Assembly: GCA_035652475.1 (NCBI GenBank)
Contig: DASRDR010000288.1
Coordinates: 1 to 47,917 of the forward strand
DNA: 47,917 bases
Direction: 5' to 3'
Source of the DNA: Candidatus Methylomirabilota bacterium
GTDB taxonomy: Bacteria; Methylomirabilota; Methylomirabilia; Rokubacteriales; DASRDR01
In this document: positions 265 through 45,236 of the stretch, in pieces
Layout of the letters: each line of letters begins with the position of its first letter
How positions within the stretch are numbered: the first letter of the stretch is position 1
Notes under the pieces: model-generated
What the model saw: only the letters and a program-made list of their open reading frames with translations
What the model was told of the DNA's origin: nothing
Database searches by the model: none
Made by a program: the position numbers and the translations under genes

Positions 265-1088
265 GCCGCCGCGGGGCGCTCGCCCCGCCGCGCCGCCGGG
301 GCGAGGCACCGGGCGCCCCGCGGCGCTGGCCGCGCTGCTCGCCGGCGTGGTCGCGCTCGCGCCGGCGCTCGGGGCCGCCGGTCCGCGCGGCGCCGCCCGG
401 GACGCGCACCGGGGACGGCCCCGGGCCGCCCCCCGCGTCCCCGGGATCACCCACGTGGTCGCGCCCGGGGACACGCTGTGGGGGATCGCTCGGGAGCACG
501 GGGTGCCCCTTCCCGCGCTCCTCCGCGCCAACGGCCTGGCCCGGAACGCGCGGATCCGGGTCGGCCAGCGGCTCGCCATCCCCCTGACGGCGCTTCGGCC
601 GGGCAGCCAGGAGCCCCCGTCGCTCGCCGACATCGTGCTCGAGCCCCCGACGGCGGTCCCCGCGATCCGGCTGGTCCGCCCGGTGCCGGGGGCTCTGCTC
701 TCCCCGTTCGGGCCGCGCGGCGCCGCGTGGCACGGCGGGGTCGACCTCCAGGCCGACCGCGGGACCCCGATCCGCGTCGCGGCGGCCGGCACCGTGATCG
801 CGAGCGGCTGGGAGCGGGGATAACGGGCACGTCGTCAAGGTGTGGCACCGACACGATCTCGTCACGGTGTACGCGCATAACTTCGAGAATCTCGTGAAGG
901 TCGGGGCGTGGGTGGAGGCCGGCGAGGTGATCGCGACCGTGGGGAGCACCGGCCGGGCGACGGCGCCCCACCTCCATTTCGAGGTCCGCCTCGATGGACG
1001 GAAGTACGACCCGCTTCACTGGCTGCCGGCGGACGCGATCGCCCAGGCGGCCGTGGTGCCCCTCCGCGGCGCGGGCCCGATCCCGTGA
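254..1088 (+). pseudogene. NlpD-like LysM + M23 metallopeptidase, interrupted by a +1 frameshift near 821
   Basis: ORF 254-823 encodes a hydrophobic N-terminus, a LysM segment (HVVAPGDTLWGIAREHGVPLPALLRANGL) and the start of M23 (WHGGVDL). ORF 840-1088 in the next frame continues M23 (LVTVYAHN...[15 protein letters not shown]). Deleting one A at 821-822 (GGA TAA CGG to GGA TAC GGG) restores GWERGYGHVVKVWH, the canonical M23 core. Confidence 0.8.
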
Positions 1089-2110
1089 CCGAGAACGAGC
1101 GCCCCGCTCCAGCTCCGGACGAGGAGGCCACCGGGCGGGCCTCGCGTCCCCCGGAACCGGCCAGCGCCGGAGCGGGCGGCGGTTCCGCCGACGCGCTGGC
1201 GGACGACGACGCGGAAGAGGAGCCCGAGGAGGACGCGCCCGAGGCGATCGAGGCGGACGCCGGCGAGGATGCGGAGGAGGCCCCGAGCGGGCAGCCGCCG
1301 ATCGGGATCTACCTCCGGGAGATCTCGCACATCCCGCTCCTCACGCGGGAGGAGGAGCTCGAGCTCGCCAAGCGGGCGGCCGCCGGCGACCAGGCGGCGG
1401 CCCGGCGGATGGTCGAGGCGAACCTCCGGCTGGTCGTCATGATCGCCCGCCGCTACCGGAACCGCGGCCTGCCCCTCGCCGACCTGATCGCGGAGGGCAA
1501 CCTGGGGCTCATCCACGCAGTCGAGAAGTTCCGCTGGGACCGGGGCACGCGGTTCTCGACGTACGCCACGTGGTGGATCCGGCAGGCCATCGCGCGGGCG
1601 CTTGCGAACCAGGCGCGGCTGATCCGCCTCCCGGTCCACGTCGAGGCGCTTCTCGGCAAGTATCGCCGCGTCAAGGAGGCGCTGACGAACCGGCTGGGCC
1701 GCCCGCCCGACGTGGCGGAGGTCGCCGCCGAGCTCGGGGTCCCGGTCAAGGACGTGCAGGGCCTGGAGGAGATCGGCCGCGCACCGGTGTCGCTCGAGAC
1801 GCCCGTCGGCGAGGGGGAAGGGGTCCTCGCCGACCTGGTCGCCGACCAGATGGACCCGGGCGCCGCCGCGCTCGCCGCGATGCTGCGCGATCACGCCGAG
1901 CTGCGGGAGATCCTGGACACGCTCTCCCCGACCGAGCGGGCCATCGTGACCGATCGGTTCGGGCTGGCGAGCGCGACCCCGATGACGCTGGCCGCGATCG
2001 GCCGCCGGATGGGAGTCACCCGGGAGCGGGTGCGGCAGATCGAGGCGGGCGCGCTCCGGAAGCTCCGCGCGCTGCTCGAGGCGCGGGGCATCGACTGGCC
2101 GGGGCCGTGA
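1085..2110 (+). CDS. rpoS: sigma-70 family sigma factor, RpoS-like (group 2)
   Basis: Regions 2-4 are recognisable: [81 protein letters not shown]. The GTG at 1085 overlaps the peptidase stop (GTGA). The position directly after an NlpD-like gene mirrors nlpD-rpoS synteny. The symbol is tentative. Confidence 0.85.
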
Positions 2111-8952: not shown

Positions 8953-9426
8953 TCATGGTCGACCCTTGGCGGCCCGCCACTCCCACGGTGCGATCGGATG
9001 CGGGTCGGCCCACAGGCCGCGTCGGGACGCTCGCGCCTCGGCCTCCAGGGTTCCGAGCGCGCGGTCTTTCGAGTACTTGCGAAACCACCACGCCCATCCG
9101 GCCCGGACCAGCTCGCGATTGACGTTCCGGCCATCCGGCAGGATGAGCTCGGCCAGGCGTCGGCCGCTCCGATCCCGACCGTAATCGCGCACCAGAACGA
9201 TCTGTCGAGCCGTGAGCTCGACCAGCGCCTGCTTGGCCTCGCGACCGAAGGCCTGTCCCTCCTCGGGCGCGTCGATCCAGCGGAGCCGGACGACCACCTG
9301 CCGGGCGCCGTGAAGCACCCTGACGGTGTCGCCCTCCATGACGGCGACCACGCGGGCGGAGTAGGTCTCGGCCCCGGCAGACACGGCGAACAGGAGCGCC
9401 CCGACCAGGGCGGCGAGCTGCAGCAT
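8953..9426 (-). CDS. secreted thermonuclease (staphylococcal nuclease, SNase fold)
   Basis: A signal-like N-terminus (MLQLAALVGALLFAVSAGA) is followed by VVAVMEGDTVRV...VRLRWIDAPE...FGREAKQAL...RLAELILPDGRNVNRELVRAGWAW...LEAEARASRRGLW, the SNase pattern. Confidence 0.85.
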   Translation of the reverse strand: MLQLAALVGALLFAVSAGAETYSARVVAVMEGDTVRVLHGARQVVVRLRWIDAPEEGQAFGREAKQALVELTARQIVLVRDYGRDRSGRRLAELILPDGRNVNRELVRAGWAWWFRKYSKDRALGTLEAEARASRRGLWADPHPIAPWEWRAAKGRP

Positions 9427-26746: not shown

Positions 26747-26927
26747 GGAGCCCTCCTCCGATCGGTGCGCGGCGGCGAAGGCGACGACCGCGACGGCGCG
26801 GTCGTCACGGCACATGACGTTCAGATCGTGGGAATCGCGACCCGCGGTGCCCGGGATGGGGATCCGCTGCCGGAAGGCGGAGATGCGGCCAGGCGTCGGA
26901 TCGCGATCGCGCCCGAGCGACTGGAGG

Positions 26928-27362
26928 TCAGGCCGGACGGTCACGGTCGATCGGCGCGCCCGGCCCGAGGGCCCGGGCGACGGCAAGGCGGAGCTCGTCG
27001 AGGAAGAAGGGCTTCGCGAGGTAGCCTGCCGCTCCGATCTCCGTGGCTTCTCGCCGGGCGTGATCGGATGAGTACGCGCTGCACACGGCAACGGGGACCG
27101 GTGGCCGCTGTTCTCGCGCGTGCCGGGCGACGGCGAACCCGTCGGCCGGGCCCGGGCAGCCGGAGGTCCGCGAGGACGAGATCCGGCTGCGCGGCCGTGA
27201 TCGCCGCGAGCGCCGCCGTGCCGGTGTGCGTGATCCGCAGGGAGTACCCCAACCCGCCGAGGTAGCGAGCGCAGGTGTCCGCGAGATCGGCCTCGTCCTC
27301 CACGATCAGGATGCGCGCCGGCGACGCGCGGTGCGCGCCGGACTCCCTGCGCTCGTTCCCAT
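26928..27362 (-). pseudogene. stand-alone CheY-like receiver (paralogue of 31894-32286), disrupted by frameshifts
   Basis: ARILIVEDEADLADTCARYLGGLGYSLRITHTGTAALAAITAAQPDLVLADLRLPG is in one frame. DGFAVARHAREQRPPVPVAVCSAYSSDHARREATEIGAAGYLAKPFFLDELRLAVARAL (stop 26928-26930) is in another. The junction CTGCCCGGGCCCGGCCGACGGG has 4 extra nt relative to the LPGADG of the paralogue. The only ATG (27362) is also 1 nt out of frame (ATGGGAAC versus the expected ATGGGGAAC). Confidence 0.6.
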
Positions 27363-27386
27363 GCTCGGTCCTCTGCTGGACTCGGG

Positions 27387-27402
27387 TGCAGCCTCGGTGC
27401 CA
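27387..27402 (-). promoter_or_regulatory. sigma-54 promoter P2 (TGGCACcgaggCTGCA)
   Basis: The minus strand reads TGGCAC-N5-CTGCA with the canonical GG-N10-GC spacing, 24 nt upstream of the receiver ATG at 27362. Confidence 0.55.
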
Positions 27403-27529
27403 GGCCGGACCGCCGCACCGCCTCTCGCACCGCGGGCGTCCGGACGATCGGCAGGCCCGGTGGGCTGCCGGGACCCCAGTTGGGACCGCCGTGACCGGGC
27501 GGTCCGAGCGGCCGGGAGGCCGCGCCCGA

Positions 27530-28657
27530 TCACAGCGCGAACCGCACCCGGGCGCCGATGCCCCCCGCCCGCGCGAGCCCGGGGTGCGAATCGACCAGCC
27601 ACACGCCGCCGCCCGCCGCGATGGTCGCCGTGACGACGGCCTCACCGAGCTCGACCGCGATGGTCCCGTGGCGGCACTGCCGGCAGAGCGCCGCGGTGCC
27701 GGGCTGGAGGCCGCCGCAGGCGGAGCACCGCCGGCCGGACTCCCGGAAGGCGCGCAGCAGGTAGAGCTGGTCGACCGCGCCCCGCTGGGCCGCTTCGAGG
27801 ACGGCGTCCAGGCTCGCCACGGCCCGCCCATCCTTGGCCGCCTCGGTGAGGACGGTGTCCACCGCGCGCGCGAGCGCGGCGCGCTCGCCCGTCGCGAGCG
27901 CGGTCAGCGCCCGGTCGACGACGGCCGCCGGGGTCTCGTGCCGCGCGGCCGGTACCGCGCCGGCCACCCGGCTCGCGAGGGGCTCCGGCAGCCGTCGCCG
28001 GAGTGCCGCGACGACCTCGGCCGGCCCCGCGAGCACGATGCGCCCCGCGTCGTGCTCGTCGTCCAGCCGGCCCAGGGCCGCGGCTACCGCCTCGAGATGC
28101 TGGCCGCGATGCTCGGCGATGTGCCGCTGGTATCGCGACTGGGCGAGCTGCGCCCAGCCGCCCCGGCGGTGGCGACCGGGCACGTCGCTCTCCAGGCGAA
28201 CCGTGGCGCCCGCCCCACCGATGGAGACTGGCGTGAGCCACGCGCTCTCCGCGTCCACGAACGCGACCACGGTCTCCGGACTCTCGGTCAGGAGCGCGGC
28301 CAGGGGACGCAGGACCGGCGCGGGCGCGACGACGAACGTCGGCTCGAACGGGATCCGCGCCGGCAACAGCTCGCGCAGGGTCTCGTCGCCGCCAGCGAAG
28401 AGCGCCACGCCGTGCGCCTCCGGATGGCGCGCCTGGCCGATCAGCGCCTCGCCCTGGCCCTCGATCCAGTCGAGGGCCGCGGCGAGGCGCGGCGCTGGAT
28501 CCGCGGCCCGGGCGTTCCGGACCTCGCGCCGTAGGAAGACGCGCGTCCGCTCACGCTGGTGCTCGTCCCGCCAGTCCGTGTTCAGGTACACGCTCACGAC
28601 CGGCGTGCGGCCCCCGGTCAGCCTGGCCAGCCGGGGGAGCTGCTCGGTGATGCTCAT
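27530..28657 (-). CDS. bacterial eRF1-like (baeRF / Vms1-like release-factor fold) protein with a C-terminal zinc ribbon
   Basis: 375 aa: MSITEQLPRLARLTGGRTPVVSVYLNTDWRDEHQRERTRVFL..., a central GRHRRGGWAQLAQSRYQRHIAEH (the G-G-x-x-Q...RYQR block I associate with bacterial aeRF1-type families), and a C-terminal CSACGG...CRQCRHG. GAGGAG RBS. The family assignment is from memory of motifs, not a search. Confidence 0.65.
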   Translation of the reverse strand: MSITEQLPRLARLTGGRTPVVSVYLNTDWRDEHQRERTRVFLRREVRNARAADPAPRLAAALDWIEGQGEALIGQARHPEAHGVALFAGGDETLRELLPARIPFEPTFVVAPAPVLRPLAALLTESPETVVAFVDAESAWLTPVSIGGAGATVRLESDVPGRHRRGGWAQLAQSRYQRHIAEHRGQHLEAVAAALGRLDDEHDAGRIVLAGPAEVVAALRRRLPEPLASRVAGAVPAARHETPAAVVDRALTALATGERAALARAVDTVLTEAAKDGRAVASLDAVLEAAQRGAVDQLYLLRAFRESGRRCSACGGLQPGTAALCRQCRHGTIAVELGEAVVTATIAAGGGVWLVDSHPGLARAGGIGARVRFAL

Positions 28658-28820
28658 CGTGGGATCTCCTCGGCAGGCGCCCGCCGCCGCGGCGGCCCGC
28701 GCGTGCCGCGCGGCGGCCCTCGTAGGCGTCATCTGGCCCACGGGAGGTGGCCCGGCCGCGCTCCCCGGACGGGATCCGGGATCGGCGAGGTCGGCGACCA
28801 CCCCCGTCCGCGGGGCCGGA

Positions 28821-29255
28821 CTAGGCCGCCTTGATCGGGATCGCGGTGCCCTTCGCGCCCGCCGCCTTGGGCAGCGTCACCGAGAGGAGGCCGTTCTTGA
28901 AGGTCGCGGTGACCTTGCTTCCCTCGACCGCCGCCGGGAGGCGGATGGCCCGGGTGAAAGCGCCGTAGGACCGCTCGGTCCGATAGTAATGCTCGTCCTT
29001 GTCCTCCTTCTCCTGCTTCTTCTCGCCCTTGAGCACCAGCACCTGGTCCTCGAGGGAGAGCTGGATGTCCTTGGCGTCCATGCCCGGGACCTCGGCCTTC
29101 ACCACGACCGCGTCCTTCGTCTCGGAGACGTCGAGGGCCGGCGCCCACTCCCCGATCGCCGGGAACTGGAAGTCCCCCTCCCAGAAGCGATCGAAGAGGC
29201 GATCCATCTCCTTCTTCATCGTCGACACGCCGGTCCACGGTGACAATGCTCGCAT
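28821..29255 (-). CDS. Hsp20/alpha-crystallin small heat-shock protein
   Basis: WAPALDVSETKDAVVVKAEVPGMDAKDIQLSLEDQVLVLKGEKK...ERSYGAFTRAIRLPAAVEGSKVTATFKNGLLSVTLPK is the classic ACD. GGGAGGA RBS. Confidence 0.9.
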   Translation of the reverse strand: MRALSPWTGVSTMKKEMDRLFDRFWEGDFQFPAIGEWAPALDVSETKDAVVVKAEVPGMDAKDIQLSLEDQVLVLKGEKKQEKEDKDEHYYRTERSYGAFTRAIRLPAAVEGSKVTATFKNGLLSVTLPKAAGAKGTAIPIKAA

Positions 29256-29301
29256 GTCCGGTCCTCCCTCTTCGGTGATTTAATCGGTTCGCAGAACAGG
29301 G

Positions 29302-29317
29302 AGCAACGACGATGCCA
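29302..29317 (-). promoter_or_regulatory. sigma-54 promoter P1 (TGGCATcgtcgTTGCT)
   Basis: The minus strand reads TGGCAT-N5-TTGCT with exact GG-N10-GC spacing, 46 nt upstream of the hsp20 ATG (29255). It overlaps the ATG of the divergent GNAT ORF. Confidence 0.7.
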
Positions 29318-29956
29318 TGCGGGAAGGGTCGCGGGGACGCTCGATTACCTCGGCCCGGCCCTGGCGGTCTGGGGCAGGGGCCCCTCGGCTGGGGCGCTGA
29401 CGCCCCAGGGAAGACGGCCCGCCTGACTGATGGCTCCGAGGTCTCCATCCGGCCGATCCGGCCGGAAGACGCGCCCGCGCTGACGGCACTCTACGACCGG
29501 CTGAGCCCCCACACGGCGTACCAGCGGTTCTTCACCGTGATGCGCCGGCTGCCGCCGGAGTGGGCCCGCGTCCTCGCCAACGTCGACTATGACCGCCGGA
29601 TGGCATTCGTTGCCCTGACGCCCGACGACGGGGTGATCGGGGTGGCCCGCTACCCGTCGGAAGCCGGCGCCGACGAGGCGGAGATCGCGGTCGTGGTCCA
29701 GGACGGGTGGCAGGGTCGGGGTCTCGGGACGAGGCTGGTCACCGAGCTGATCGAGTACGCGCGGGGGAAGGGGATCCGGGAGTTCCGCGCCTACGTGCTG
29801 GCCGACAACGCGCGCATGCTCGCCCTGCTCGGGCGCGTCGCGACCGTGCTCGATCGCCGGACCGAGTCCGGCATCGTCTCCCTGCGGCTCGGGCCGCCGG
29901 CCGCGTCCGCGACGGTCCGGCCCCCCGCGACGCGGCGCGACCGGCCGCACTCGTGA
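29312..29956 (+). CDS. GNAT-family N-acetyltransferase (Pat C-terminal-domain-like)
   Basis: VSIRPIRPEDAPALTALYDRLSPHTAYQRFF...AFVAL...IGVARY...AEIAVVVQDGWQGRGLGTRLVTELIEYARGKGIREFRAYVLADNARM. The only canonical start is the ATG at 29312, which gives a roughly 38-aa low-complexity extension. Confidence 0.8.
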   Translation: MPCGKGRGDARLPRPGPGGLGQGPLGWGADAPGKTARLTDGSEVSIRPIRPEDAPALTALYDRLSPHTAYQRFFTVMRRLPPEWARVLANVDYDRRMAFVALTPDDGVIGVARYPSEAGADEAEIAVVVQDGWQGRGLGTRLVTELIEYARGKGIREFRAYVLADNARMLALLGRVATVLDRRTESGIVSLRLGPPAASATVRPPATRRDRPHS

Positions 29957-29976: not shown

Positions 29977-31671
29977 TCAGGCCGGGGCGATCGCCGGGAA
30001 CGACAGCGTGAAGGTCGCCCCCTTGCCCGGTGAGGATTCGACTTCGATCGTCCCCCCGTGATCCTGCACGATGCCGTAGCTCACCGCCAGCCCGAGGCCC
30101 GTGCCGGACGCCTTCGTCGTGTAGAAGGGCTCGAAGAGGTGCGGCAGGTCGCGGGGGGCGATCCCGGGGCCCGTGTCCGCGATGACGAGGCGGACCCATC
30201 GCGGGCGCCCGGGGACGGGGCCGGTCGACACGCGGATCTCGCCGCCCGTGGTCATGGCCTCCCGCGCGTTGGTGAGCAGGTTCAGGACGACCTGCTGGAG
30301 CGCGTTGCCGTCGCCCAGGAGCGGCGGGAGGTCGGGATCGAGCGCGGTGATGACGCGGACGTTGTCCGTGCTCAAGGGCTTCCCGGCCAGGAGCAGGGTC
30401 TCCTCGACCACCTTGTTCAGGGTCACCGGCTGCCGCTCGCCCGGGGAGTGCCGGGCGAAGGAGCGGAGCGCCTTGGCCACCCCGGCGACGCGGAGCACGT
30501 TTCGGTGGACGACGCTGAGGTCCTCGAGGTGCTGGGCCGGGAGCGCCTGGCCCTGGGCGTCCGCCAGCATGAGCTCGATCCGCGAGGAGATGATCCCGAG
30601 GGGGTTATTCATCTCGTGAGCCACACCCGCCACGAGCCGGCCCAGGGCCGCCAGCTTCTCGCTCTGGTACAGGATCTCCCGCTGCCGCCGGAGCTCCTCC
30701 TCGGTGCGCCGGTGCTCGAGGTGCTGGCCGATGCGGCTCCCGATGTCGCTCAGCATCGTGAGCAGCGCGTGATCCCGTGGCGCAACCTCGCGCCGGAGGA
30801 GCACCATGATGCCGATCATGCGCTGGTCGCTCCGGACCGGGAACGCGCACCCGGATCGGAGCTCGAGGCGCGCCGCGGCCGCCGCGCGGACGAACCCGAC
30901 CTCCTGCGCGACGTCCTCGGCCCAGAGCGCCTCGCCCGTCGCCCACACCCGGCCGGGGATGCCCATCCCCCGCGCGAGAGGGACCTGACGGCCGAGCGTG
31001 GCGAACTCTTCGGCGTCCAGGGTCTCCCGGTACCAGATCGCGTCGGATCGGAGGACGTCCTCGTCCACGCGCCAGAACTCGCCCAGGTCCCAGTCCAGGC
31101 TCTCGCAGAGCGCCAGGAGGAGGCGGGGGGCGAGGCCCTCCATCGGGCCGGATTCGGCGAACACGCGCGTCACCGCGAATTCCGCCTGCAGGCGCCGCTC
31201 GGCCTCCCGGCGCGGGGTGACGTCCGTGATGAAGCTGAGCGCGAAGAGCCCCTCGTCGGTCTCGATGAAGCTCAGGCTGATCTCCACCGGGAAGGTTCGG
31301 CCGTCCTTGCGCCGGGCGACCAGGTCGAGGCCCAGTCCCATCGGGCGGACTCGCGGATGGTCGAAGAAGCTGGCACGGTGGGCCAAGTGGGCGCCGCGGA
31401 GGTGCTCGGGCAGGAGGAGCTCGACGGCGAGCCCGCCGAGCTCGTCGCGCGCGTAGCCGAACATCTCCTCCGCGCGCTGGTTCGCCCAGACGATCCGGCC
31501 GGTGCGGTCGCTCATCAGGATGCCGAGCGGCGAGGTTTCCAGGACCTTCTCGGCCCTGGCCACCGACCCAAGGAGCAACGGGTTCGGCAGCCGACCGGAG
31601 CCGCCGGCGACCCCTGGTCGCGGCCGCTGCCTCGCCGCCGCGCCTCGCTTCCCCCGTGGCATGTCGCCCAC
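29977..31671 (-). CDS. cytoplasmic PAS-GAF sensor histidine kinase
   Basis: PAS (ILMSDRTGRIVWANQRAEEMFGYARDEL...RKDGRTFPVEISLS), GAF (LDWDLGEFWRVD...GMGIPGRVWATGEALW), HisKA (LAALGRLVAGVAHEMNNPL) and HATPase (NLLTNAREAM...DTGPGI...GTGLGLAVSYGIVQDHGG). No TM segment. Start at GTG 31671 or ATG 31662. Confidence 0.9.
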   Translation of the reverse strand: MGDMPRGKRGAAARQRPRPGVAGGSGRLPNPLLLGSVARAEKVLETSPLGILMSDRTGRIVWANQRAEEMFGYARDELGGLAVELLLPEHLRGAHLAHRASFFDHPRVRPMGLGLDLVARRKDGRTFPVEISLSFIETDEGLFALSFITDVTPRREAERRLQAEFAVTRVFAESGPMEGLAPRLLLALCESLDWDLGEFWRVDEDVLRSDAIWYRETLDAEEFATLGRQVPLARGMGIPGRVWATGEALWAEDVAQEVGFVRAAAAARLELRSGCAFPVRSDQRMIGIMVLLRREVAPRDHALLTMLSDIGSRIGQHLEHRRTEEELRRQREILYQSEKLAALGRLVAGVAHEMNNPLGIISSRIELMLADAQGQALPAQHLEDLSVVHRNVLRVAGVAKALRSFARHSPGERQPVTLNKVVEETLLLAGKPLSTDNVRVITALDPDLPPLLGDGNALQQVVLNLLTNAREAMTTGGEIRVSTGPVPGRPRWVRLVIADTGPGIAPRDLPHLFEPFYTTKASGTGLGLAVSYGIVQDHGGTIEVESSPGKGATFTLSFPAIAPA

Positions 31672-36418: not shown

Positions 36419-36434
36419 TGCAACGGGGGTGCCA
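36419..36434 (-). promoter_or_regulatory. sigma-54 promoter P4 (TGGCACccccgTTGCA)
   Basis: The minus strand gives a perfect consensus TGGCAC-N5-TTGCA, 62 nt upstream of the tandem-USP ATG (36356). Confidence 0.7.
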
Positions 36435-36584: not shown

Positions 36585-36600
36585 TGGCATCGCGGTTGCT
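36585..36600 (+). promoter_or_regulatory. sigma-54 promoter P5 (TGGCATcgcggTTGCT)
   Basis: The plus strand reads TGGCAT-N5-TTGCT with exact spacing, ending 16 nt before the ATG at 36617. It is divergent from P4, about 150 bp away. Confidence 0.65.
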
Positions 36601-39884: not shown

Positions 39885-41321
39885 GTGCCGCCAGGGCCAG
39901 CGATGCGGCGCGGCGGCGACGCTCCACCCGCGGCGGAGGTGAGCGCGACGGTGCGCGTGTTGATCGTCGACGACGAACCGGATGTGGTCGCGAACTGGGC
40001 GCGGGTGCTGCAGCGCGACGGGCACACATGCGTGGCGACCACCGACGGCGAGCGGGCGCTGGGGCTGCTCGAGAGCGAGCGGCCGGAGATCGTGCTCACC
40101 GACCTCAAGATGCCTGGCGTCGACGGGATGCAGGTCCTGACCCGCGCGATCGACCTGGATCCGGACGCCGTGGTGATCGTGATCACCGGGCACGGGACGG
40201 TCGAGTCCGCGGTGCAGGCCATGCGGGCCGGCGCATTCGATTACCTCCTGAAGCCGCTGCCCTCCAATGACGTGCTCAGCCTCGCGGTCGAGCGGGCGCG
40301 CGAGCGGCGGCGCCTCGTCGAGGAGAATCGCCGGCTCCGCGAGCCCCTGGCCTCGCGCGCCGGCTTCGACGACATCGTGGGCAAGGGCCCGGCGATGGAG
40401 GCGGTCTTCGATCTCGTCCAGCGGGCAGCCCGATCCGACGCCAACATCCTGATCCAGGGCGAGTCGGGCACGGGCAAGGAGCTGATCGCACGGGCGATTC
40501 ACGCCAACAGTCCCCGCGCGGCCGAGATCTTCGTCCCGGTCGACTGCGCCGCGCTCCCGGACGCCCTGCTGGAGTCGGAGCTGTTCGGCCACGAGCGCGG
40601 CGCATTCACCGGCGCCGACCGCGCGAAGCCCGGGATGATCGAGGTGGCGGATCGCGGCACGCTCTTCCTGGACGAGATCGGGGAGCTCCCGCTCGCGCTG
40701 CAGCCGAAGCTGCTCCGCGCGCTCCAGGAGCGGCAGATCCGACGCGTCGGCTCCACGCGGTTCCTGAGCGTGGACGTCCGGCTGGTCGCCGCCACGAACC
40801 GCGACATCGGGGCGCTGGTGCGGAAGGGCGAGTTCCGCGAGGAGCTCTTCTATCGCGTCAACGTCATCACGATCGCGCTCCCGCCGCTCCGGGAGCGGGC
40901 GGGGGACGTGAAGCTCCTGGCCCATCACTTCTTGCGTCGGTACGGTCGGAACCGGGAGCGCCCGCTGGAGGGGTTCGAGCCCGAGGTGCTCGGTCTGCTG
41001 CAGGCGTACTCGTGGCCCGGCAACGTCCGCGAGCTGCAGAACGTGGTCGAGCGAGCCTGTGCCCTGGCCGACGGGCCGGTCATCCGCGCCCGTGACCTGC
41101 CCGAGCACGTCCGGGGCCGCGGCCGGCCAGCGCCCGCGACCCCCGGCAAGGACCTCCCGCTGGCGGAAGCCCGCGAGATCTGGCTCCGCGGCTTCGCCCA
41201 GGAGTACCTGACCGATCTCCTGCGGCGCCACGGCGGGAACGTCTCCCAGGCGGCCAAGACCGCCGGGGTGGACCGGAAGACCCTCCACCGCCTGCTGGCC
41301 CGGCACGGGATCCGTGGCTGA
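39885..41321 (+). CDS. sigma-54-dependent response regulator (REC-AAA+-Fis HTH; NtrC family)
   Basis: REC (VLIVDDEPD...VLTDLKMPGVDG...DYLLKP), AAA+ (ILIQGESGTGKELIARAIH, GAFTGA, LFLDEIGELP, RLVAATN, ELFYRVN) and C-terminal HTH (GNVSQAAKTAGVDRKTLHRLL). The exact start is uncertain (39885-39951). Confidence 0.9.
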   Translation: MPPGPAMRRGGDAPPAAEVSATVRVLIVDDEPDVVANWARVLQRDGHTCVATTDGERALGLLESERPEIVLTDLKMPGVDGMQVLTRAIDLDPDAVVIVITGHGTVESAVQAMRAGAFDYLLKPLPSNDVLSLAVERARERRRLVEENRRLREPLASRAGFDDIVGKGPAMEAVFDLVQRAARSDANILIQGESGTGKELIARAIHANSPRAAEIFVPVDCAALPDALLESELFGHERGAFTGADRAKPGMIEVADRGTLFLDEIGELPLALQPKLLRALQERQIRRVGSTRFLSVDVRLVAATNRDIGALVRKGEFREELFYRVNVITIALPPLRERAGDVKLLAHHFLRRYGRNRERPLEGFEPEVLGLLQAYSWPGNVRELQNVVERACALADGPVIRARDLPEHVRGRGRPAPATPGKDLPLAEAREIWLRGFAQEYLTDLLRRHGGNVSQAAKTAGVDRKTLHRLLARHGIRG

Positions 41322-41421: not shown

Positions 41422-41787
41422 TCATGCGAGCGGCGCGGCGCCGGTCGCCAGCAGCCGGCGCGCCGCGTAGTACTTCTTCGGCCGCCGCCGGCTCTCCCGG
41501 AGCCGGTCCCGCTCCTGCGCGAGCTCGCGCTCGAGGACCGTCACGGCCTCGTCGAACGCCCGTCGCGCGGCGGTGGCGGTCTGCTCGACGCGCAGATCGG
41601 CCCGCCCGGGGCGTCGGACCGTGAGCGCGCAGCGCATGGCGCGACCGCCCTTCGGGCCGTTGTCGTCGAAGAACGTCGCCAGGGCCGTCACGGGAGCGGG
41701 CAGGCCCTGGACCGCCGCCGCCAGCTTCGTCGCGACGCGGGTACGCAGGGCGCCGTCGACCGGGATCCCGCGGATCTCGAGCTTCAT
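41422..41787 (-). CDS. HPF/RaiA-family ribosome-associated (hibernation-factor-like) protein
   Basis: MKLEIRGIPVDGALRTRVATKLAAAVQGL...RCALTVRRPGRADLRVEQTATAARRAFDEAVTVLERELAQERDRLRE follows the M-x-[LI]-x-I-x-G-x-x-[VI]-x-x-x-x-L-R...K-L...L-E-R-x-L pattern of sigma-54 modulation protein/HPF. GAGGAG RBS. Confidence 0.6.
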   Translation of the reverse strand: MKLEIRGIPVDGALRTRVATKLAAAVQGLPAPVTALATFFDDNGPKGGRAMRCALTVRRPGRADLRVEQTATAARRAFDEAVTVLERELAQERDRLRESRRRPKKYYAARRLLATGAAPLA

Positions 41788-43075: not shown

Positions 43076-43091
43076 TGCAACGCGGGTGCCA
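43076..43091 (-). promoter_or_regulatory. sigma-54 promoter P6 (TGGCACccgcgTTGCA)
   Basis: The minus strand gives a perfect consensus TGGCAC-N5-TTGCA, 241 nt downstream of the rtcB stop and about 220 nt upstream of the ADH ATG. Confidence 0.65.
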
Positions 43092-43331: not shown

Positions 43332-44777
43332 TCAGCCCTTGATGTTCCCGATCGGGGTCAGGCTCACGACGGGGCGCGACAGGTCGAGGCGTGCCAGGAC
43401 GTCGACGACGGCGCCCAGGTCCTTGTAGGCGAGGCCCGCCTCCTCGGCGACCCCCGCCGCGGACGCCGCCCGGACGATGATGCCGCGCCCGGCCATCTCG
43501 CGGAGCAGGGTCTCCCCGCGGACGCGCTTCTTCGCCTGGGCCCGTGACATCGTACGGCCCGCCCCGTGTGCCGTCGACCCGAAGGTCTCGGCCATCGCGC
43601 GCGCCGTCCCCACCAGGAGCGCCGACCCGGTCTCCATCGACCCGCCAATGATGACCGGCTGACCCACGGCGCGGTAGTCCTCCGGCACGTCGGGGGCTCC
43701 GGGACCGAAGGCCCGCGTGGCGCCCTTGCGGTGCACCAGGAGATCCACCGGCCGGCCGTCGACCTCGTGGCGCTCGAGCTTCGCGGTGTTGTGGCAGACG
43801 TCGTAGACGACCTCCAGGCCGAGCTCGTGCGGGGACCGGCCGAACACGGTCGCGAACACCTCCCGGACCCGATGCGTGATGACCTGGCGATTCGCGAAGG
43901 CGGCATTGGCCGCGGCGGCCATCGCGGCGAAGTAGGCCTGTCCCTCCGGCGAGCGGAACGGCGCGCAGGCCAGCTCGCGGTCGCGCACCGTGATGCCGTA
44001 CCGGGCCATCGCTCCGTCGAACTGCCGGAGGTAGTCGGACCCGATCTGGTGCCCGAAGCCGCGCGACCCGCAGTGGAGCATGATGCACACCTGGCCGACC
44101 CGCTCGATGCCCAGCACGCGCGCGGTCCCCGGATCGTGGAGGCCGGTGGGGGGGACCACCTGCACCTCGAGGTAGTGGTTCCCCGCGCCCAGCGTGCCGA
44201 GCTGGTTGAGCCCTCGCTCGACCGCCCGTGGGCTGACCGCCGCGGGGTCGGCGCCGGGAAGACAGCCGCCGCCCTCGATGTGTGCCAGGTCCTCGGGCTC
44301 GCCGTAGCCCCGGCGGACACACCACCGCGCGCCCTCGCGCATCACCTCGCCGAACTCGGACTCCCGCAGGCGGACGAACCCGTGGGCGCCGACCCCGGTC
44401 GGGATCGCCGCGAACAGGGCGTCGACCAGGGCACGCAGCCGCGGCTGGACCTCGTCCTCGGTGAGGCTCGTCCGGATGAGCCGCATCCCGCAATTGATGT
44501 CGAACCCGATGCCGCCCGGCGAGATCACACCCTGATCCTCACAGAACGCGGCCACTCCGCCGATCGGGAACCCGTACCCCCAGTGGCCGTCGGGCATGCA
44601 CAGCGCCGCGCGGACGATGCCGGGCAGGCAGGCCACGTTCGTGATCTGCTCGAAGACACCCTGGTCCATCGCCCGCAGGAGGGGCTCGGAGGCGTAGATG
44701 CGCGCCGGCACCCGCATGCCCGGCTTCGTCTGCGTCGGGATCTCCCACACGCCGTCGGCCACCCGCACGATGTCCAT
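43332..44777 (-). CDS. rtcB: RNA 3'-phosphate ligase RtcB
   Basis: ACLPGIVRAALCMPDGHWGYGFPIGGVAAF, GGIGFDINCGMR, GTLGAGNHYLEVQ, MLHCGSRGFGHQ, CHNTA, HRKGATRAF, GSMETGS, TAHGAGR. The ATG at 44777 is preferred (GAGGAC RBS); an upstream TTG at 44795 is possible. Confidence 0.95.
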   Translation of the reverse strand: MDIVRVADGVWEIPTQTKPGMRVPARIYASEPLLRAMDQGVFEQITNVACLPGIVRAALCMPDGHWGYGFPIGGVAAFCEDQGVISPGGIGFDINCGMRLIRTSLTEDEVQPRLRALVDALFAAIPTGVGAHGFVRLRESEFGEVMREGARWCVRRGYGEPEDLAHIEGGGCLPGADPAAVSPRAVERGLNQLGTLGAGNHYLEVQVVPPTGLHDPGTARVLGIERVGQVCIMLHCGSRGFGHQIGSDYLRQFDGAMARYGITVRDRELACAPFRSPEGQAYFAAMAAAANAAFANRQVITHRVREVFATVFGRSPHELGLEVVYDVCHNTAKLERHEVDGRPVDLLVHRKGATRAFGPGAPDVPEDYRAVGQPVIIGGSMETGSALLVGTARAMAETFGSTAHGAGRTMSRAQAKKRVRGETLLREMAGRGIIVRAASAAGVAEEAGLAYKDLGAVVDVLARLDLSRPVVSLTPIGNIKG

Positions 44778-44789
44778 GTCCGTCCTCTG

Positions 44790-44819
44790 GCTCAAATGTC
44801 GATTCGCTCAAATGTCGAT
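44790..44819. repeat. tandem direct duplication (14-nt core GCTCAAATGTCGAT, 16-nt period) at the archease stop / rtcB leader
   Basis: The plus strand reads GCTCAAATGTCGAT-TC-GCTCAAATGTCGAT. On the coding (minus) strand this is ATCGACATTTGAGC twice. The 44806-44819 copy holds the last three archease codons plus its TGA. Confidence 0.9.
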
Positions 44820-45236
44820 GACGACCCGCGCTCGCCATCCGGTCTCGTCGGCGGTGACCCGGAGCTGGTGGAGCGTGACCGCCTTCGGGTCGGCCCGGCG
44901 CTCGGTGCCGGCGGGGTCGATCACGCCGCCGCGGACGGAGGCCGCGAGGCGAACCGGCCCGTCGCCGCTGATCCGCACGCGCGCCTCCGGGAACACCTCG
45001 CGGTCGCGGTCCTTCCGGAAGATGAGCTCCCCCAGCCAGTCGAACAGGAGGAGGTCCACCTGGGCCGCCTCGAGCTCGATCGTCCGCTCGACGGTCACGG
45101 GGAGCGTCCCGGGATCGATCATGAGCTCCGCGAGGGCCCGGGCCGCCGTCTCGAACAGATCGCCGGCGTCGCGGCCCTCGATGTCCATCGCGCAGTCCGC
45201 CAGCGCGACGTCCTCGACGACCGTGTAGCGTCCCAT
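44808..45236 (-). CDS. archease (RtcB activator)
   Basis: MGRYTVVEDVALADCAMDIEGRDAGDLFETAARALAELMIDPG...LLLFDWLGELIFRKDRD...KAVTLHQLRV. The ATG shares one base with the upstream stop (TGATG). Confidence 0.9.
   Translation of the reverse strand: MGRYTVVEDVALADCAMDIEGRDAGDLFETAARALAELMIDPGTLPVTVERTIELEAAQVDLLLFDWLGELIFRKDRDREVFPEARVRISGDGPVRLAASVRGGVIDPAGTERRADPKAVTLHQLRVTADETGWRARVVIDI

What the first reader, a model, noticed from the sequence alone, without database searches (positions are those of the whole stretch)
27530..29317. Sigma-54-driven Hsp20 + eRF1-like (baeRF) operon: candidate uncharacterised ribosome-rescue/translation-arrest module
A small heat-shock protein gene is followed 163 nt later, on the same strand, by a 375-aa protein. 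That protein has a central GRHRRGGWAQLAQSRYQRHIAEH block and overall layout matching what I recall of bacterial archaeo-eukaryotic release-factor-like families (eRF1/Vms1 fold). The GGxxQ-type loop would sit where the GGQ peptidyl-tRNA hydrolysis loop does. It also carries a C-terminal CxxC...CxxC zinc ribbon.

To my knowledge these bacterial families have only been described computationally and have no assigned physiological role. In this window the gene shares a predicted sigma-54 regulon with an HPF/RaiA-like ribosome-hibernation protein (41422-41787). It also lies about 15 kb from an archease-RtcB RNA-repair pair. That points to a stress programme acting on ribosomes, tRNA or nascent chains: the chaperone would handle released or aggregating peptides while the release-factor homologue resolves stalled complexes. 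The functional link is inference.
Basis: partly seen in the sequence, partly recalled or inferred. Interest (0 to 1): 0.75.

Follow-up and report, generated by a model that had tools for sequence, protein, structure and literature searches.

The report
Sigma-54 Hsp20 plus Balon-like operon
A stress-controlled two-gene unit encodes a small heat-shock chaperone and a bacterial relative of the archaeal/eukaryotic release factor eRF1; since 2024 that protein's superfamily is known to contain ribosome "hibernation" factors (Balon), so this is a new member of a known kind, although its subfamily keeps a release-factor-like loop that nobody has tested.

Summary
A sigma-54 -24/-12 element (29302-29317) precedes hsp20 (28821-29255). 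After a 163-nt gap comes a 375-aa protein (27530-28657).

That protein is a clear Pfam baeRF_family10 member (85 bits against a cut-off of 27). Its closest solved relatives by sequence and by fold are the ribosome hibernation factors Msmeg1130, Rv2629 and Balon, followed by eRF1/aRF1. The GGWAQ loop aligns on the eRF1 GGQ loop. It is conserved from Methylomirabilota to Syntrophaceae, as is the CxxC...CxxC zinc ribbon.

The sigma-54 element is invariant in orthologues. It is retained in two lineages where hsp20 has been deleted, which argues for co-transcription.

The hsp20 pairing itself is narrow: 3 of 56 informative related loci. The usual partner is HPF (32 of 56), often with USP and CBS genes and mostly behind a sigma-54 motif.

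Balon homologues next to Hsp20, RaiA and RtcB were published in 2024.

Most likely this is a Balon-superfamily A-site factor in a sigma-54 dormancy regulon. Whether its conserved Gln loop also releases nascent chains remains open. Interest is moderate.

The parts
29302..29317 (-). sigma-54 type -24/-12 promoter element TGGCATCGTCGTTGCT (GG-N10-GC)
   Evidence: strongly enriched in the window. TGGCAT-N4-GTTGCTCC is invariant in the orthologous loci L001, L008 and L009; it is retained in L017 and L044 after hsp20 was deleted.
29256..29301 (-). hsp20 5' leader with Shine-Dalgarno GGGAGGA; contains a conserved block CGATTA-A-CAC
   Evidence: No convincing conserved RNA structure: consensus fold -2.68 kcal/mol.
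28821..29255 (-). hsp20 (alpha-crystallin small heat-shock protein), 144 aa
   Evidence: Pfam HSP20 84.2 bits against a cut-off of 20.8. Orthologues are 81-84% identical in L001, L008 and L009.
28658..28820 (-). 163-nt intergenic spacer, poorly conserved, with no recognisable promoter or intrinsic terminator
   Evidence: 0 sigma-70-like sites and 0 terminator-like sites; fold z-score -0.69; low conservation.
27530..28657 (-). baeRF-1 family 10 protein (Balon/aeRF1 superfamily), 375 aa, three domains
   Evidence: Pfam PF18854 85.3 bits against 27.1. AF2 model pLDDT 82.6. Foldseek best hits are Msmeg1130/Balon at E=3e-20, then eRF1/aRF1. Profile against PDB sequences: Msmeg1130 7e-19.
28121..28180 (-). 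Middle-domain loop and helix start, residues 160-179: PGRHRRGGWAQLAQSRYQRH, the counterpart of the eRF1 GGQ loop
   Evidence: Aligns without gaps on eRF1 PKKHGRGGQSAL. H163, G166, G167, W168 and A169 are invariant in 26 sequences. Family consensus is PGRHKQGGWSQxRYQRH. Syntrophaceae homologues, 33% identical overall, keep VPGRHDQGGW[AS]Q.R[YF]QRH.
27674..27727 (-). Zinc ribbon C311-x2-C314-x10-C325-x2-C328, inserted in the C-terminal (eRF1_3/Pelota-like) domain
   Evidence: Four Cys invariant in 26/26 sequences and in 99-100 of 106 diverse sequences. Weak resemblance to L40e-type ribbons.
27387..27402 (-). Second sigma-54-like element (TGGCACCGAGGCTGCA, one mismatch) downstream of the baeRF stop, in front of a single-domain response regulator; marks the likely end of the operon
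   Evidence: GG/GC are kept at the same place in the 81%-identical relative L081.
41422..41787 (-). Short HPF/RaiA-type hibernation factor, second gene of a sigma-54-preceded Zn-ADH-HPF pair (motif at 43076-43091); homologue of the HPF that sits directly upstream of family-10 genes in other genomes
   Evidence: The HPFs upstream of family-10 genes in 32 related loci are 45-66% identical to it.
39885..41321 (+). NtrC-type sigma-54 enhancer-binding response regulator (receiver-AAA+-HTH_8), candidate activator of the regulon
   Evidence: Pfam Sigma54_activat 3.4e-69. An orthologue (80-86% identity) is syntenic with the family-10 gene in L001, L008, L009, L017 and L044.
29977..31671 (-). PAS-GAF-HisKA-HATPase sensor kinase, syntenic neighbour (HK-GNAT-hsp20-baeRF)
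   Evidence: Synteny in L001, L008, L009, L017 and L044.

Best explanation
This is a sigma-54-dependent stress operon on the minus strand: promoter 29302-29317, hsp20, then a 375-aa baeRF-1 family 10 protein.

The family-10 protein belongs to the bacterial aeRF1-derived superfamily. The characterised members of that superfamily (Balon, Msmeg1130, Rv2629) are ribosome hibernation factors that sit in the A site.

Proposed mechanism, with the basis of each step:
1. An NtrC-type activator (39885-41321), probably fed by the adjacent PAS-GAF kinase, opens the sigma-54 promoter under a dormancy-type stress (inferred).
2. hsp20 and the family-10 gene are made from one transcript (supported by comparative evidence).
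3. The protein binds the ribosomal A site without reading a codon. Its N domain is Balon-like and has no NIKS motif (inferred from homology).
4. Its middle-domain loop HRRGGWAQ points at the peptidyl-transferase centre. Its zinc-ribbon-bearing C domain faces EF-Tu, as Balon's beta-hairpin does (inferred).
5. It acts together with the separately encoded, also sigma-54-preceded HPF to silence and protect ribosomes (inferred from the conserved HPF-USP-CBS-baeRF10 operons in relatives).

The loop has eRF1 length, an invariant GG and a conserved Gln. I therefore put roughly 40% on the protein also hydrolysing the peptidyl-tRNA it meets, which Balon does not do.

Hsp20 is a co-regulated stress partner, not an obligate one.
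For: - Family and fold: Pfam baeRF_family10 at 85 bits. End-to-end, though sub-threshold, alignments to the NCBIfam Rv2629 and MSMEG_1130 'ribosome hibernation factor' models. The best PDB sequence hit (7e-19) and best Foldseek hit (3e-20) are Msmeg1130/Balon on the ribosome.
- Regulation: the sigma-54 motif is invariant in orthologues. It is kept directly in front of the family-10 gene where hsp20 has been internally deleted, leaving 5' and 3' remnants (L017, L044). No promoter or terminator is detected in the 163-nt spacer.
- Regulon: six sigma-54-type sites lie in the window in front of hsp20, two response regulators, USP, an NTP-transferase and ADH-HPF, with an enhancer-binding protein present.
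- Context in 56 informative Methylomirabilota-type loci: HPF sits directly upstream in 16, and 12 of those have the exact sigma-54 motif just before HPF. HPF lies within 0.5-2.5 kb upstream in 16 more, with USP and CBS genes in between.
- Published precedent: Balon genes lie next to RaiA, Hsp20 and RtcB and inhibit translation (PMC10901736). The same gene families make up the M. tuberculosis DosR dormancy regulon: Rv2623 USP, Rv2626c, Rv2629, Rv2631 RtcB, Rv2031c alpha-crystallin and Rv0079 RafH (PMC5309233).
Against: - No experiment exists for family 10.
- Scores against the curated hibernation-factor models are far below their cut-offs: 63 against 320, and 58 against 480.
- Unlike Balon, the loop is highly conserved and keeps GG plus a Gln, which fits catalysis better than simple steric blocking (PMC6514570).
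- In Syntrophaceae the family-10 gene sits in a housekeeping cluster (glmM-pdxJ-acpS-nnr-X-BFN-tsaE) with no HPF, no hsp20 and no sigma-54 motif. Hibernation is therefore not the only context for the family.
- Co-transcription and sigma-54 dependence have not been measured.
Confidence: 0.55

Rival explanations
1. The protein is primarily a catalytically active, codon-independent peptidyl-tRNA hydrolase, or a Vms1-like tRNA 3'-end nuclease. It would rescue stalled ribosomes or 50S-peptidyl-tRNA complexes, and hibernation would be at most a by-product.
For: - The loop aligns without gaps on the eRF1 GGQ loop.
- The family consensus P-G-R-H-x-x-G-G-W-[SA]-Q-x-R-[YF]-Q-R-H is kept at 33% overall identity.
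- 119 of the 120 closest homologues have GGW, and all 119 keep a Gln at +2 and/or +5.
- GGxSQ is the motif Burroughs & Aravind report for aVLRF-1 and acVLRF-1, and they name family 10 as a possible active hydrolase.
- Pfam acVLRF1 also scores above its cut-off: 35.0 against 27.1.
- The Syntrophaceae copies sit in a housekeeping context next to tsaE.
Against: - The canonical Gln position is an invariant Trp.
- The Gln at +2 is Leu in 21 of 119 close homologues, and across diverse representatives the Gln column is Gln in only 76 of 106 sequences.
- The nearest characterised relatives are non-catalytic.
- In this clade the gene travels with HPF, USP and CBS under sigma-54, which is a dormancy signature rather than a quality-control one.
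- The invariant aromatic residue plus Arg/His could simply grip rRNA, as Balon's lasso loop grips A2602.
Confidence: 0.3
2. Hsp20 and the family-10 protein have no functional coupling. They merely share a stress promoter through a recent, lineage-specific gene juxtaposition.
For: - Direct hsp20 adjacency is found in only 3 of 56 informative loci, plus the near-identical contigs L081-L084.
- hsp20 was deleted in L017 and L044 while the promoter and the family-10 gene stayed.
- Elsewhere the partner is HPF.
Against: - L002 links sigma-54, hsp20, HPF, a CBS gene and baeRF10 in one co-oriented cluster, and L042 has hsp20 4 kb upstream.
- The Balon paper lists Hsp20 among recurrent neighbours in other phyla.
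Confidence: 0.5
3. The protein is a conflict or defence component, or has a non-ribosomal role.
For: Burroughs & Aravind argue that baeRF-1 diversification was driven by biological conflicts and lateral transfer.
Against: - No PADLOC hit for either protein or for the neighbouring GNAT.
- No mobile-element or toxin genes adjoin it.
- Stable synteny with a kinase, GNAT and enhancer-binding protein.
- All three domains match ribosome-bound structures.
Confidence: 0.05

Closest known systems
Balon / Msmeg1130 / Rv2629 ribosome hibernation factors (Helena-Bueno et al., Nature 2024; PDB 8rd8, 8rdv, 8rdw, 8v9j, 8v9k, 8v9l)
   Same: - Same aeRF1-derived three-domain fold; they are the best sequence and structure matches in the PDB.
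- Balon-like N domain without NIKS.
- Stress-operon context with Hsp20, RaiA/HPF and RtcB nearby.
   Different: - About 22% identity, and far below the NCBIfam equivalog cut-offs.
- Keeps an eRF1-length loop with invariant GG-W and a conserved Gln, where Balon has a lasso loop and bL27 trap with no GGQ.
- Carries a four-Cys zinc ribbon where Balon has an EF-Tu-binding beta-hairpin.
- Controlled by sigma-54.
Pfam PF18854 baeRF_family10 (Burroughs & Aravind 2019)
   Same: A direct member at 85 bits. It has the conserved Gln and the full three-domain layout described for this family.
   Different: Nothing structural. The paper did not describe sigma-54 control or the hsp20 pairing. The Methylomirabilota clade has a 3-residue insertion after GGWAQ.
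eRF1/aRF1 class-I release factors
   Same: Middle and C domains are homologous. The loop P-x-[KR]-H-x-x-G-G aligns without gaps on the GGQ loop. Classical aeRF-1 is described as carrying a zinc ribbon at this insertion site in the C domain.
   Different: GGQ is GGW. There is no NIKS and no eRF1_1 domain hit. TIGR03676 scores 31 against a cut-off of 235.
Vms1/ANKZF1 and the bacterial/archaeal VLRF1 families
   Same: A GGxxQ-type loop, reported as GGxSQ in aVLRF-1 and acVLRF-1. Pfam acVLRF1 scores above its cut-off. NCBI names one homologue 'Vms1/Ankzf1 family peptidyl-tRNA hydrolase' (P0100).
   Different: Scores much better as baeRF_family10. The full-length alignment is to Balon-type proteins, including the N domain. 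None of the VLRF1-specific N-terminal extensions was detected.
M. tuberculosis DosR dormancy regulon (Rv2623-Rv2631, Rv2031c, Rv0079)
   Same: The same set of gene families: USP, CBS (Hrp1), a Balon homologue, RtcB, alpha-crystallin, an HPF-type factor and a GAF-containing sensor kinase.
   Different: Here the wiring is sigma-54 plus an NtrC-type activator rather than a DosR (NarL-type) regulator. The phylum is different, and so is the Balon subfamily.

Membership tests
Pfam PF18854 baeRF_family10 | HMM score above the gathering threshold | tested here: met
   85.3 bits against 27.1, residues 114-253 on profile positions 1-141 of 143. A Syntrophaceae homologue scores 106 bits.
Pfam PF18854 baeRF_family10 | Well-conserved Gln in the catalytic-loop region (Burroughs & Aravind 2019) | tested here: met
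   GGWAQ. Of the 120 closest homologues, 119 have GGW and all 119 keep a Gln at +2 and/or +5. The Syntrophaceae copies have invariant GGW[AS]Q. The Gln column is Gln in 76 of 106 diverse sequences.
Pfam PF18854 baeRF_family10 | Full aeRF1-like three-domain architecture with an insert in the C domain | tested here: met
   AF2 model pLDDT 82.6. Full-length Foldseek matches to Balon and eRF1. Four invariant Cys form the insert.
Balon-type ribosome hibernation factors (NCBIfam NF052287, NF052288, NF052289) | Score above the curated equivalog cut-off | tested here: not met
   63.2 against 320, 57.6 against 480, and 11.4 against 330. It is a homologue, not an equivalog.
Balon-type ribosome hibernation factors | aeRF1-like fold closest to ribosome-bound Balon structures | tested here: met
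   8v9l_z E=3.1e-20, 8rdw_B E=1.3e-15 and 8v9k_z E=5e-15 rank at or above eRF1.
Balon-type ribosome hibernation factors | No NIKS stop-codon motif | tested here: met
   No NIKS in residues 1-113 by reading the sequence. No Pfam eRF1_1 hit at E<=1. The N domain aligns to the Msmeg1130 N domain.
Balon-type ribosome hibernation factors | No GGQ-type loop; a lasso loop and bL27 trap instead | tested here: inconclusive
   The GGQ tripeptide is absent (GGW). However, an eRF1-length loop with invariant GG and a Gln two residues later is conserved, and Msmeg1130 has no such motif at the aligned place. The bL27 trap could not be assessed.
Balon-type ribosome hibernation factors | Beta-hairpin insertion in the C domain that contacts EF-Tu | tested here: inconclusive
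   A four-Cys zinc ribbon is present (E307-311, E317-319, E331-336). Burroughs & Aravind suggest the two-strand insert of other families is a degenerate ribbon at the same site. EF-Tu contact was not tested.
Balon-type ribosome hibernation factors | Binds the ribosomal A site and inhibits translation | not testable with these tools
   Needs biochemistry or cryo-EM.
Balon-type ribosome hibernation factors | Genomic association with RaiA/HPF, Hsp20 and RtcB | tested here: met
   hsp20 is adjacent here. HPF lies upstream in 32 of 56 related loci. HPF and archease-RtcB are in the window.
eRF1/aRF1 class-I release factor | GGQ tripeptide, NIKS motif, and TIGR03676 above its cut-off | tested here: not met
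   GGW instead of GGQ; no NIKS; 31.1 bits against 234.7.
VLRF1 (Vms1-like) families | GGxSQ / GxxQ loop | tested here: met
   GGWAQ here, GGW[SA]Q across the family. Pfam acVLRF1 scores 35.0 against 27.1.
VLRF1 (Vms1-like) families | Clade-specific N-terminal extension, or loss of the stop-codon domain | tested here: not met
   The protein has a full Balon-like N domain that aligns to Msmeg1130 from residue 17. The best-scoring family is baeRF_family10, not a VLRF1 family.
Sigma-54-dependent promoter | -24 GG / -12 GC consensus TGGCAC-N5-TTGCW, correctly oriented upstream of the gene | tested here: met
   TGGCATCGTCGTTGCT, with one mismatch, lies 47 nt before the hsp20 ATG. Six such sites against 0.34 expected.
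Sigma-54-dependent promoter | Conservation in orthologues and presence of an enhancer-binding activator | tested here: met
   Invariant in four orthologues and kept after hsp20 deletion. An enhancer-binding protein is at 39885-41321 and is syntenic in relatives. No shared upstream activator site could be identified.
Sigma-54-dependent promoter | Transcription depends on RpoN and the activator in vivo | not testable with these tools
   rpoN is not in the window and no expression data are available.
Hsp20/alpha-crystallin | Alpha-crystallin domain HMM above its cut-off | tested here: met
   84.2 bits against 20.8.

The most novel reading that the evidence does not exclude
Family 10 would be a 'Balon with teeth': a codon-independent A-site factor that, unlike Balon, uses its conserved GGW[SA]Q loop to release the nascent chain. 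It would do this either by hydrolysing the peptidyl-tRNA or by cutting its 3' end as Vms1 does, as cells enter a sigma-54-controlled dormancy. The vacant ribosome would then go to HPF and the unfinished peptides to Hsp20. That would be the first bacterial aeRF1-type protein with release activity.
Probability: 0.3. Interest if true: 0.7.

Novelty: new member of a known kind. Interest (0 to 1): 0.4.

Why it matters
Balon-type factors are a recently recognised third class of bacterial ribosome hibernation factors. Only Gln-less members have been studied.

This locus, and the roughly 100 relatives examined here, show that one large subfamily keeps three things: an eRF1-like GG..Q loop, the zinc ribbon that Burroughs & Aravind describe for classical aeRF-1, and (in Methylomirabilota) a sigma-54 dormancy regulon with HPF, USP, CBS and Hsp20.

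That gives a defined test case for an old question: has any bacterial aeRF1 homologue retained peptide-release chemistry? It also shows the same dormancy gene set as the mycobacterial DosR regulon, wired through a different regulator.

The practical value is modest until someone does the biochemistry.

Tried and rejected
1. The 423-aa extended ORF (GTG at 28801). Rejected: homologues start at MSITEQ-equivalent positions.
2. An intrinsic terminator or sigma-70 promoter in or around the 163-nt spacer. None was found.
3. A structured RNA in the spacer. The fold is no better than shuffles, z=-0.69, and the spacer is poorly conserved.
4. An RNA thermometer in the hsp20 leader. The consensus fold is -2.68 kcal/mol with essentially no covariation.
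5. A shared upstream activator site among the six sigma-54 promoters. Only GC-rich k-mers and unrelated dyads turned up; this is inconclusive.
6. Defence-system membership. No PADLOC hits.
7. Membership of eRF1/aRF1 or pelota. Scores are far below the cut-offs.
8. A check of whether the Balon paper's data set includes this clade. The supplementary files held as text contain no such names.
9. Literature on family-10 experiments, or on sigma-54 together with Balon. Nothing found.
Full report
**1. The observation**

- hsp20 occupies 28821-29255 (144 aa; Pfam HSP20 E=7.5e-24).
- After a 163-nt gap (28658-28820) comes a 375-aa ORF at 27530-28657. It has a GAGGAG Shine-Dalgarno sequence.
- The mechanically longest ORF (423 aa) is not the gene. 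Nearly all listed full-length homologues are 369-385 aa and align from residue 1.
- The block GRHRRGGWAQLAQSRYQRHIAEH (residues 161-183) and the C311-x2-C314-x10-C325-x2-C328 motif are there.
- TGGCATCGTCGTTGC lies at 29303-29317(-), 47 nt before the hsp20 ATG.
- The pattern TGGCA-N6-TTGC occurs five times in the window against 0.07 expected. With the fuller consensus and one mismatch there are six sites against 0.34 expected.

**2. What the 375-aa protein is**

Family and fold:
- Pfam places it firmly in baeRF_family10 (85.3 bits, cut-off 27.1). Weaker hits go to baeRF_family2, acVLRF1, Host_attach and eRF1_2.
- NCBIfam gives end-to-end but far sub-threshold alignments to the 'Rv2629 family' and 'MSMEG_1130 family ribosome hibernation factor' models: 63 against 320 bits, and 58 against 480.
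- A profile of 26 homologues finds Msmeg1130 (Balon) as the best PDB sequence (7e-19), then Rv2629 (1e-8), then eRF1 (about 1e-7).
- An AlphaFold2 model has mean pLDDT 82.6, with only the loop 158-166 below 50. Its best Foldseek hits are ribosome-bound Msmeg1130 (E=3e-20), P. urativorans Balon (1e-15) and Rv2629 (5e-15), interleaved with eRF1 and aRF1.

So the fold assignment is right, and the nearest characterised relatives are hibernation factors.

**3. The loop and the zinc ribbon**

- HMMER aligns 'VPGRHRRGGWAQL' on eRF1 'LPKKHGRGGQSAL' without a gap. GG falls on GG, the canonical Gln is a Trp, and the Gln lies two residues later.
- In 26 close homologues H163, G166, G167, W168, A169 and all four Cys are invariant.
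- Across 105 full-length representatives of 50%-identity clusters the consensus is P-G-R-H-K-Q-G-G-W-S-Q-x-R-Y-Q-R-H. Counts out of the 106 aligned sequences (the window protein included): G167 98, W168 87, the Gln 76, each Cys 99-100.
- Syntrophaceae/Thermodesulfobacteriota homologues are only 31-35% identical overall. They still read VPGRHDQGGW[AS]Q.R[YF]QRH and keep both CxxC pairs.
- The Methylomirabilota clade carries a 3-residue insertion that duplicates 'AQ' (GGWAQ-LAQ-SRYQRH). Among the 120 closest homologues, 119 have GGW. Of those, 67 have Gln at both +2 and +5, 31 only at +2, 21 only at +5, and none lacks both.

It has the GGxSQ form that Burroughs & Aravind report for archaeal and actinobacterial VLRF-1. 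[quoted passage not shown]

**4. Regulation and operon structure**

- In the orthologous loci L001, L008 and L009 (HK-GNAT-hsp20-baeRF synteny) the element TGGCAT-N4-GTTGCTCC is invariant. The 163-190-nt spacer is poorly conserved.
- In L017 and L044 the same synteny holds, but hsp20 has been internally deleted. Short 5' and 3' remnants of its coding sequence remain, and the sigma-54 element now sits 224-302 nt before the family-10 start.
- That is the best available evidence that this promoter serves the family-10 gene, and that Hsp20 is dispensable for it.
- No sigma-70-like promoter or intrinsic terminator is detected in 26800-29500. The spacer folds no better than shuffles.
- A further sigma-54-like site at 27387-27402 precedes a downstream single-domain response regulator. 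The operon probably ends at 27530.

**5. Is the gene pairing conserved?**

Only narrowly. Of 80 species-representative loci:
- 4 lack upstream sequence.
- 20 are the Syntrophaceae type.
- 56 are informative Methylomirabilota-type loci.

Among those 56:
- hsp20 is directly upstream in 3, with two more showing remnants.
- HPF is directly upstream (gap below 70 nt, once overlapping) in 16. Twelve of those have the exact sigma-54 motif just before HPF.
- HPF lies 0.5-2.5 kb upstream on the same strand in 16 more, separated by USP and CBS-domain genes.
- An exact motif lies within 3.5 kb upstream on the same strand in 34 of the 56. It is found in 0 of the 20 Syntrophaceae loci.

L002 strings sigma-54, hsp20, HPF, CBS and baeRF10 together. 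Near-identical contigs from three independent metagenomes, and an 81% relative, repeat the hsp20-baeRF arrangement.

In Syntrophaceae the gene sits instead in a housekeeping cluster: folP-glmM-pdxJ-acpS-nnr-X-BFN nuclease-tsaE.

**6. The window as a whole**

Sigma-54-type sites precede six units:
- hsp20-baeRF
- two single-domain response regulators
- a tandem USP (followed by DUF6335)
- an NTP-transferase
- a Zn-ADH-HPF pair

An NtrC-type activator (39885-41321) and a PAS-GAF histidine kinase (29977-31671) are present. Archease-RtcB lies at 43332-45236.

The gene families (alpha-crystallin, Balon homologue, USP, CBS in relatives, HPF, RtcB, GAF kinase) match those of the M. tuberculosis DosR dormancy regulon: Rv2031c, Rv2629, Rv2623, Rv2626c, Rv0079 and Rv2631 (PMC5309233; PMC10901736).

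**7. What is already known**

Helena-Bueno et al. (Nature 2024) showed the following:
- Balon and its mycobacterial homologues bind the A site, with EF-Tu, on vacant or translating ribosomes.
- They inhibit translation about as well as RaiA.
- They aid recovery from long stationary phase.
- Their genes lie typically next to RaiA and commonly next to Hsp20, RtcB and other stress genes.

Those proteins lack NIKS and GGQ. They have a lasso loop, a bL27 trap and a beta-hairpin.

I found no paper on family 10 itself, or on sigma-54 control of Balon genes.

**8. Most likely mechanism**

I commit to the following, with a confidence of about 0.55. This is a sigma-54 dormancy-type operon. Its second product is a Balon-superfamily A-site factor that cooperates with HPF to silence and protect ribosomes. 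Hsp20 is a co-regulated partner, not an obligate one.
- Shown: family, fold, loop and ribbon conservation, promoter conservation, HPF linkage.
- Inferred: A-site binding, EF-Tu contact through the ribbon, activation by the nearby enhancer-binding protein and kinase.

The main rival (about 0.3) is that the conserved GG..Q loop makes it an active, codon-independent releasing enzyme.
- For this rival: the extreme loop conservation, the eRF1-like loop length, and the housekeeping context in Syntrophaceae.
- Against it: the Trp at the canonical Gln site, incomplete Gln conservation in diverse representatives, the non-catalytic nearest relatives, and the HPF/USP/CBS company.

The two readings can combine: release first, then hibernation.

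**9. Verdict**

This is a real, well-defined feature and a new member of a known kind (Pfam baeRF_family10 within the Balon/baeRF-1 superfamily). Its sigma-54 wiring and its intact release-factor-like loop are untested. Interest is moderate, at 0.4.

Noticed in passing
window 26928-27330 (-), frameshift near 27140-27155: The single-domain response regulator downstream of the family-10 gene is broken by a +1 frameshift in the run CCCGGGCCCGGCC. With one base removed it scores Pfam Response_reg 2.4e-22. The identical frameshift segment occurs in three contigs from independent metagenomes (L082-L084). The 81%-identical relative L081 has an intact 144-aa gene. It is therefore probably a real pseudogene, not an assembly error.
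   Followed up: partly
L017:5777-6000 and L044:5699-6000: In two syntenic orthologous loci hsp20 has been internally deleted. Recognisable 5' (ATGCG.GC.CT...) and 3' (...ATCAAGGCCGAG) remnants sit between the retained sigma-54 element and the family-10 gene.
   Followed up: yes
L059-L079 (except L068), e.g. L073:340-11284: Syntrophaceae/Thermodesulfobacteriota family-10 genes sit in a strictly conserved housekeeping cluster: folP-like, glmM, pdxJ, acpS, nnr (YjeF), baeRF10, BFN-domain nuclease, tsaE, aspartokinase, and a LeuA/citramalate synthase-like gene. No HPF, hsp20 or sigma-54 motif is present. This is a very different context from the Methylomirabilota copies.
   Followed up: partly
window 36419-36434 (-) and 36585-36600 (+): Two back-to-back sigma-54 elements about 150 bp apart drive divergent genes. 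One is a tandem-USP gene followed by DUF6335; the other is an NTP-transferase. Both upstream regions share the dyads GCCCCACGTGGGGC and TGCCGGCG(A/G)(C/T)CGCCGGCA, because each lies in the other's upstream region.
   Followed up: no
window-wide, plus related loci L002, L003, L012, L013: The sigma-54-linked gene set (Hsp20, Balon homologue, USP, CBS protein, short HPF, RtcB/archease, GAF-containing kinase) mirrors the gene families of the M. tuberculosis DosR dormancy regulon, but with a different regulator type.
   Followed up: partly
window 28139-28147 (-), residues 171-173 of the 375-aa protein: There is a clade-specific 3-residue insertion right after GGWAQ that duplicates 'AQ'. Homologues lose the Gln at +2 or at +5 but never both: 0 of 119, where about 5 would be expected if the losses were independent. 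This looks like compensatory retention of one Gln.
   Followed up: partly
window 29256-29301 (-) and orthologues (alignment A2, columns 40-70): A short block, GA(C/A)CGATTA-A-CAC, is conserved in the hsp20 leader between the -12 element and the Shine-Dalgarno sequence in four orthologues. No conserved secondary structure is predicted and its function is unknown. It could simply mark the transcription start region.
   Followed up: partly
window 29312-29956 (+): The longest ORF of the divergent GNAT acetyltransferase starts inside the sigma-54 element of hsp20. Its Pfam domain begins only at residue 45, so the true start is probably further downstream. HK-GNAT-(hsp20)-baeRF synteny is conserved in L001, L008, L009, L017 and L044.
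   Followed up: no
window 908-2110 (+) and 8953-9426 (-): A full-length sigma-70 family factor (regions 1.2, 2, 3 and 4) and a staphylococcal-nuclease homologue lie in the left part of the window. Neither was examined further.
   Followed up: no
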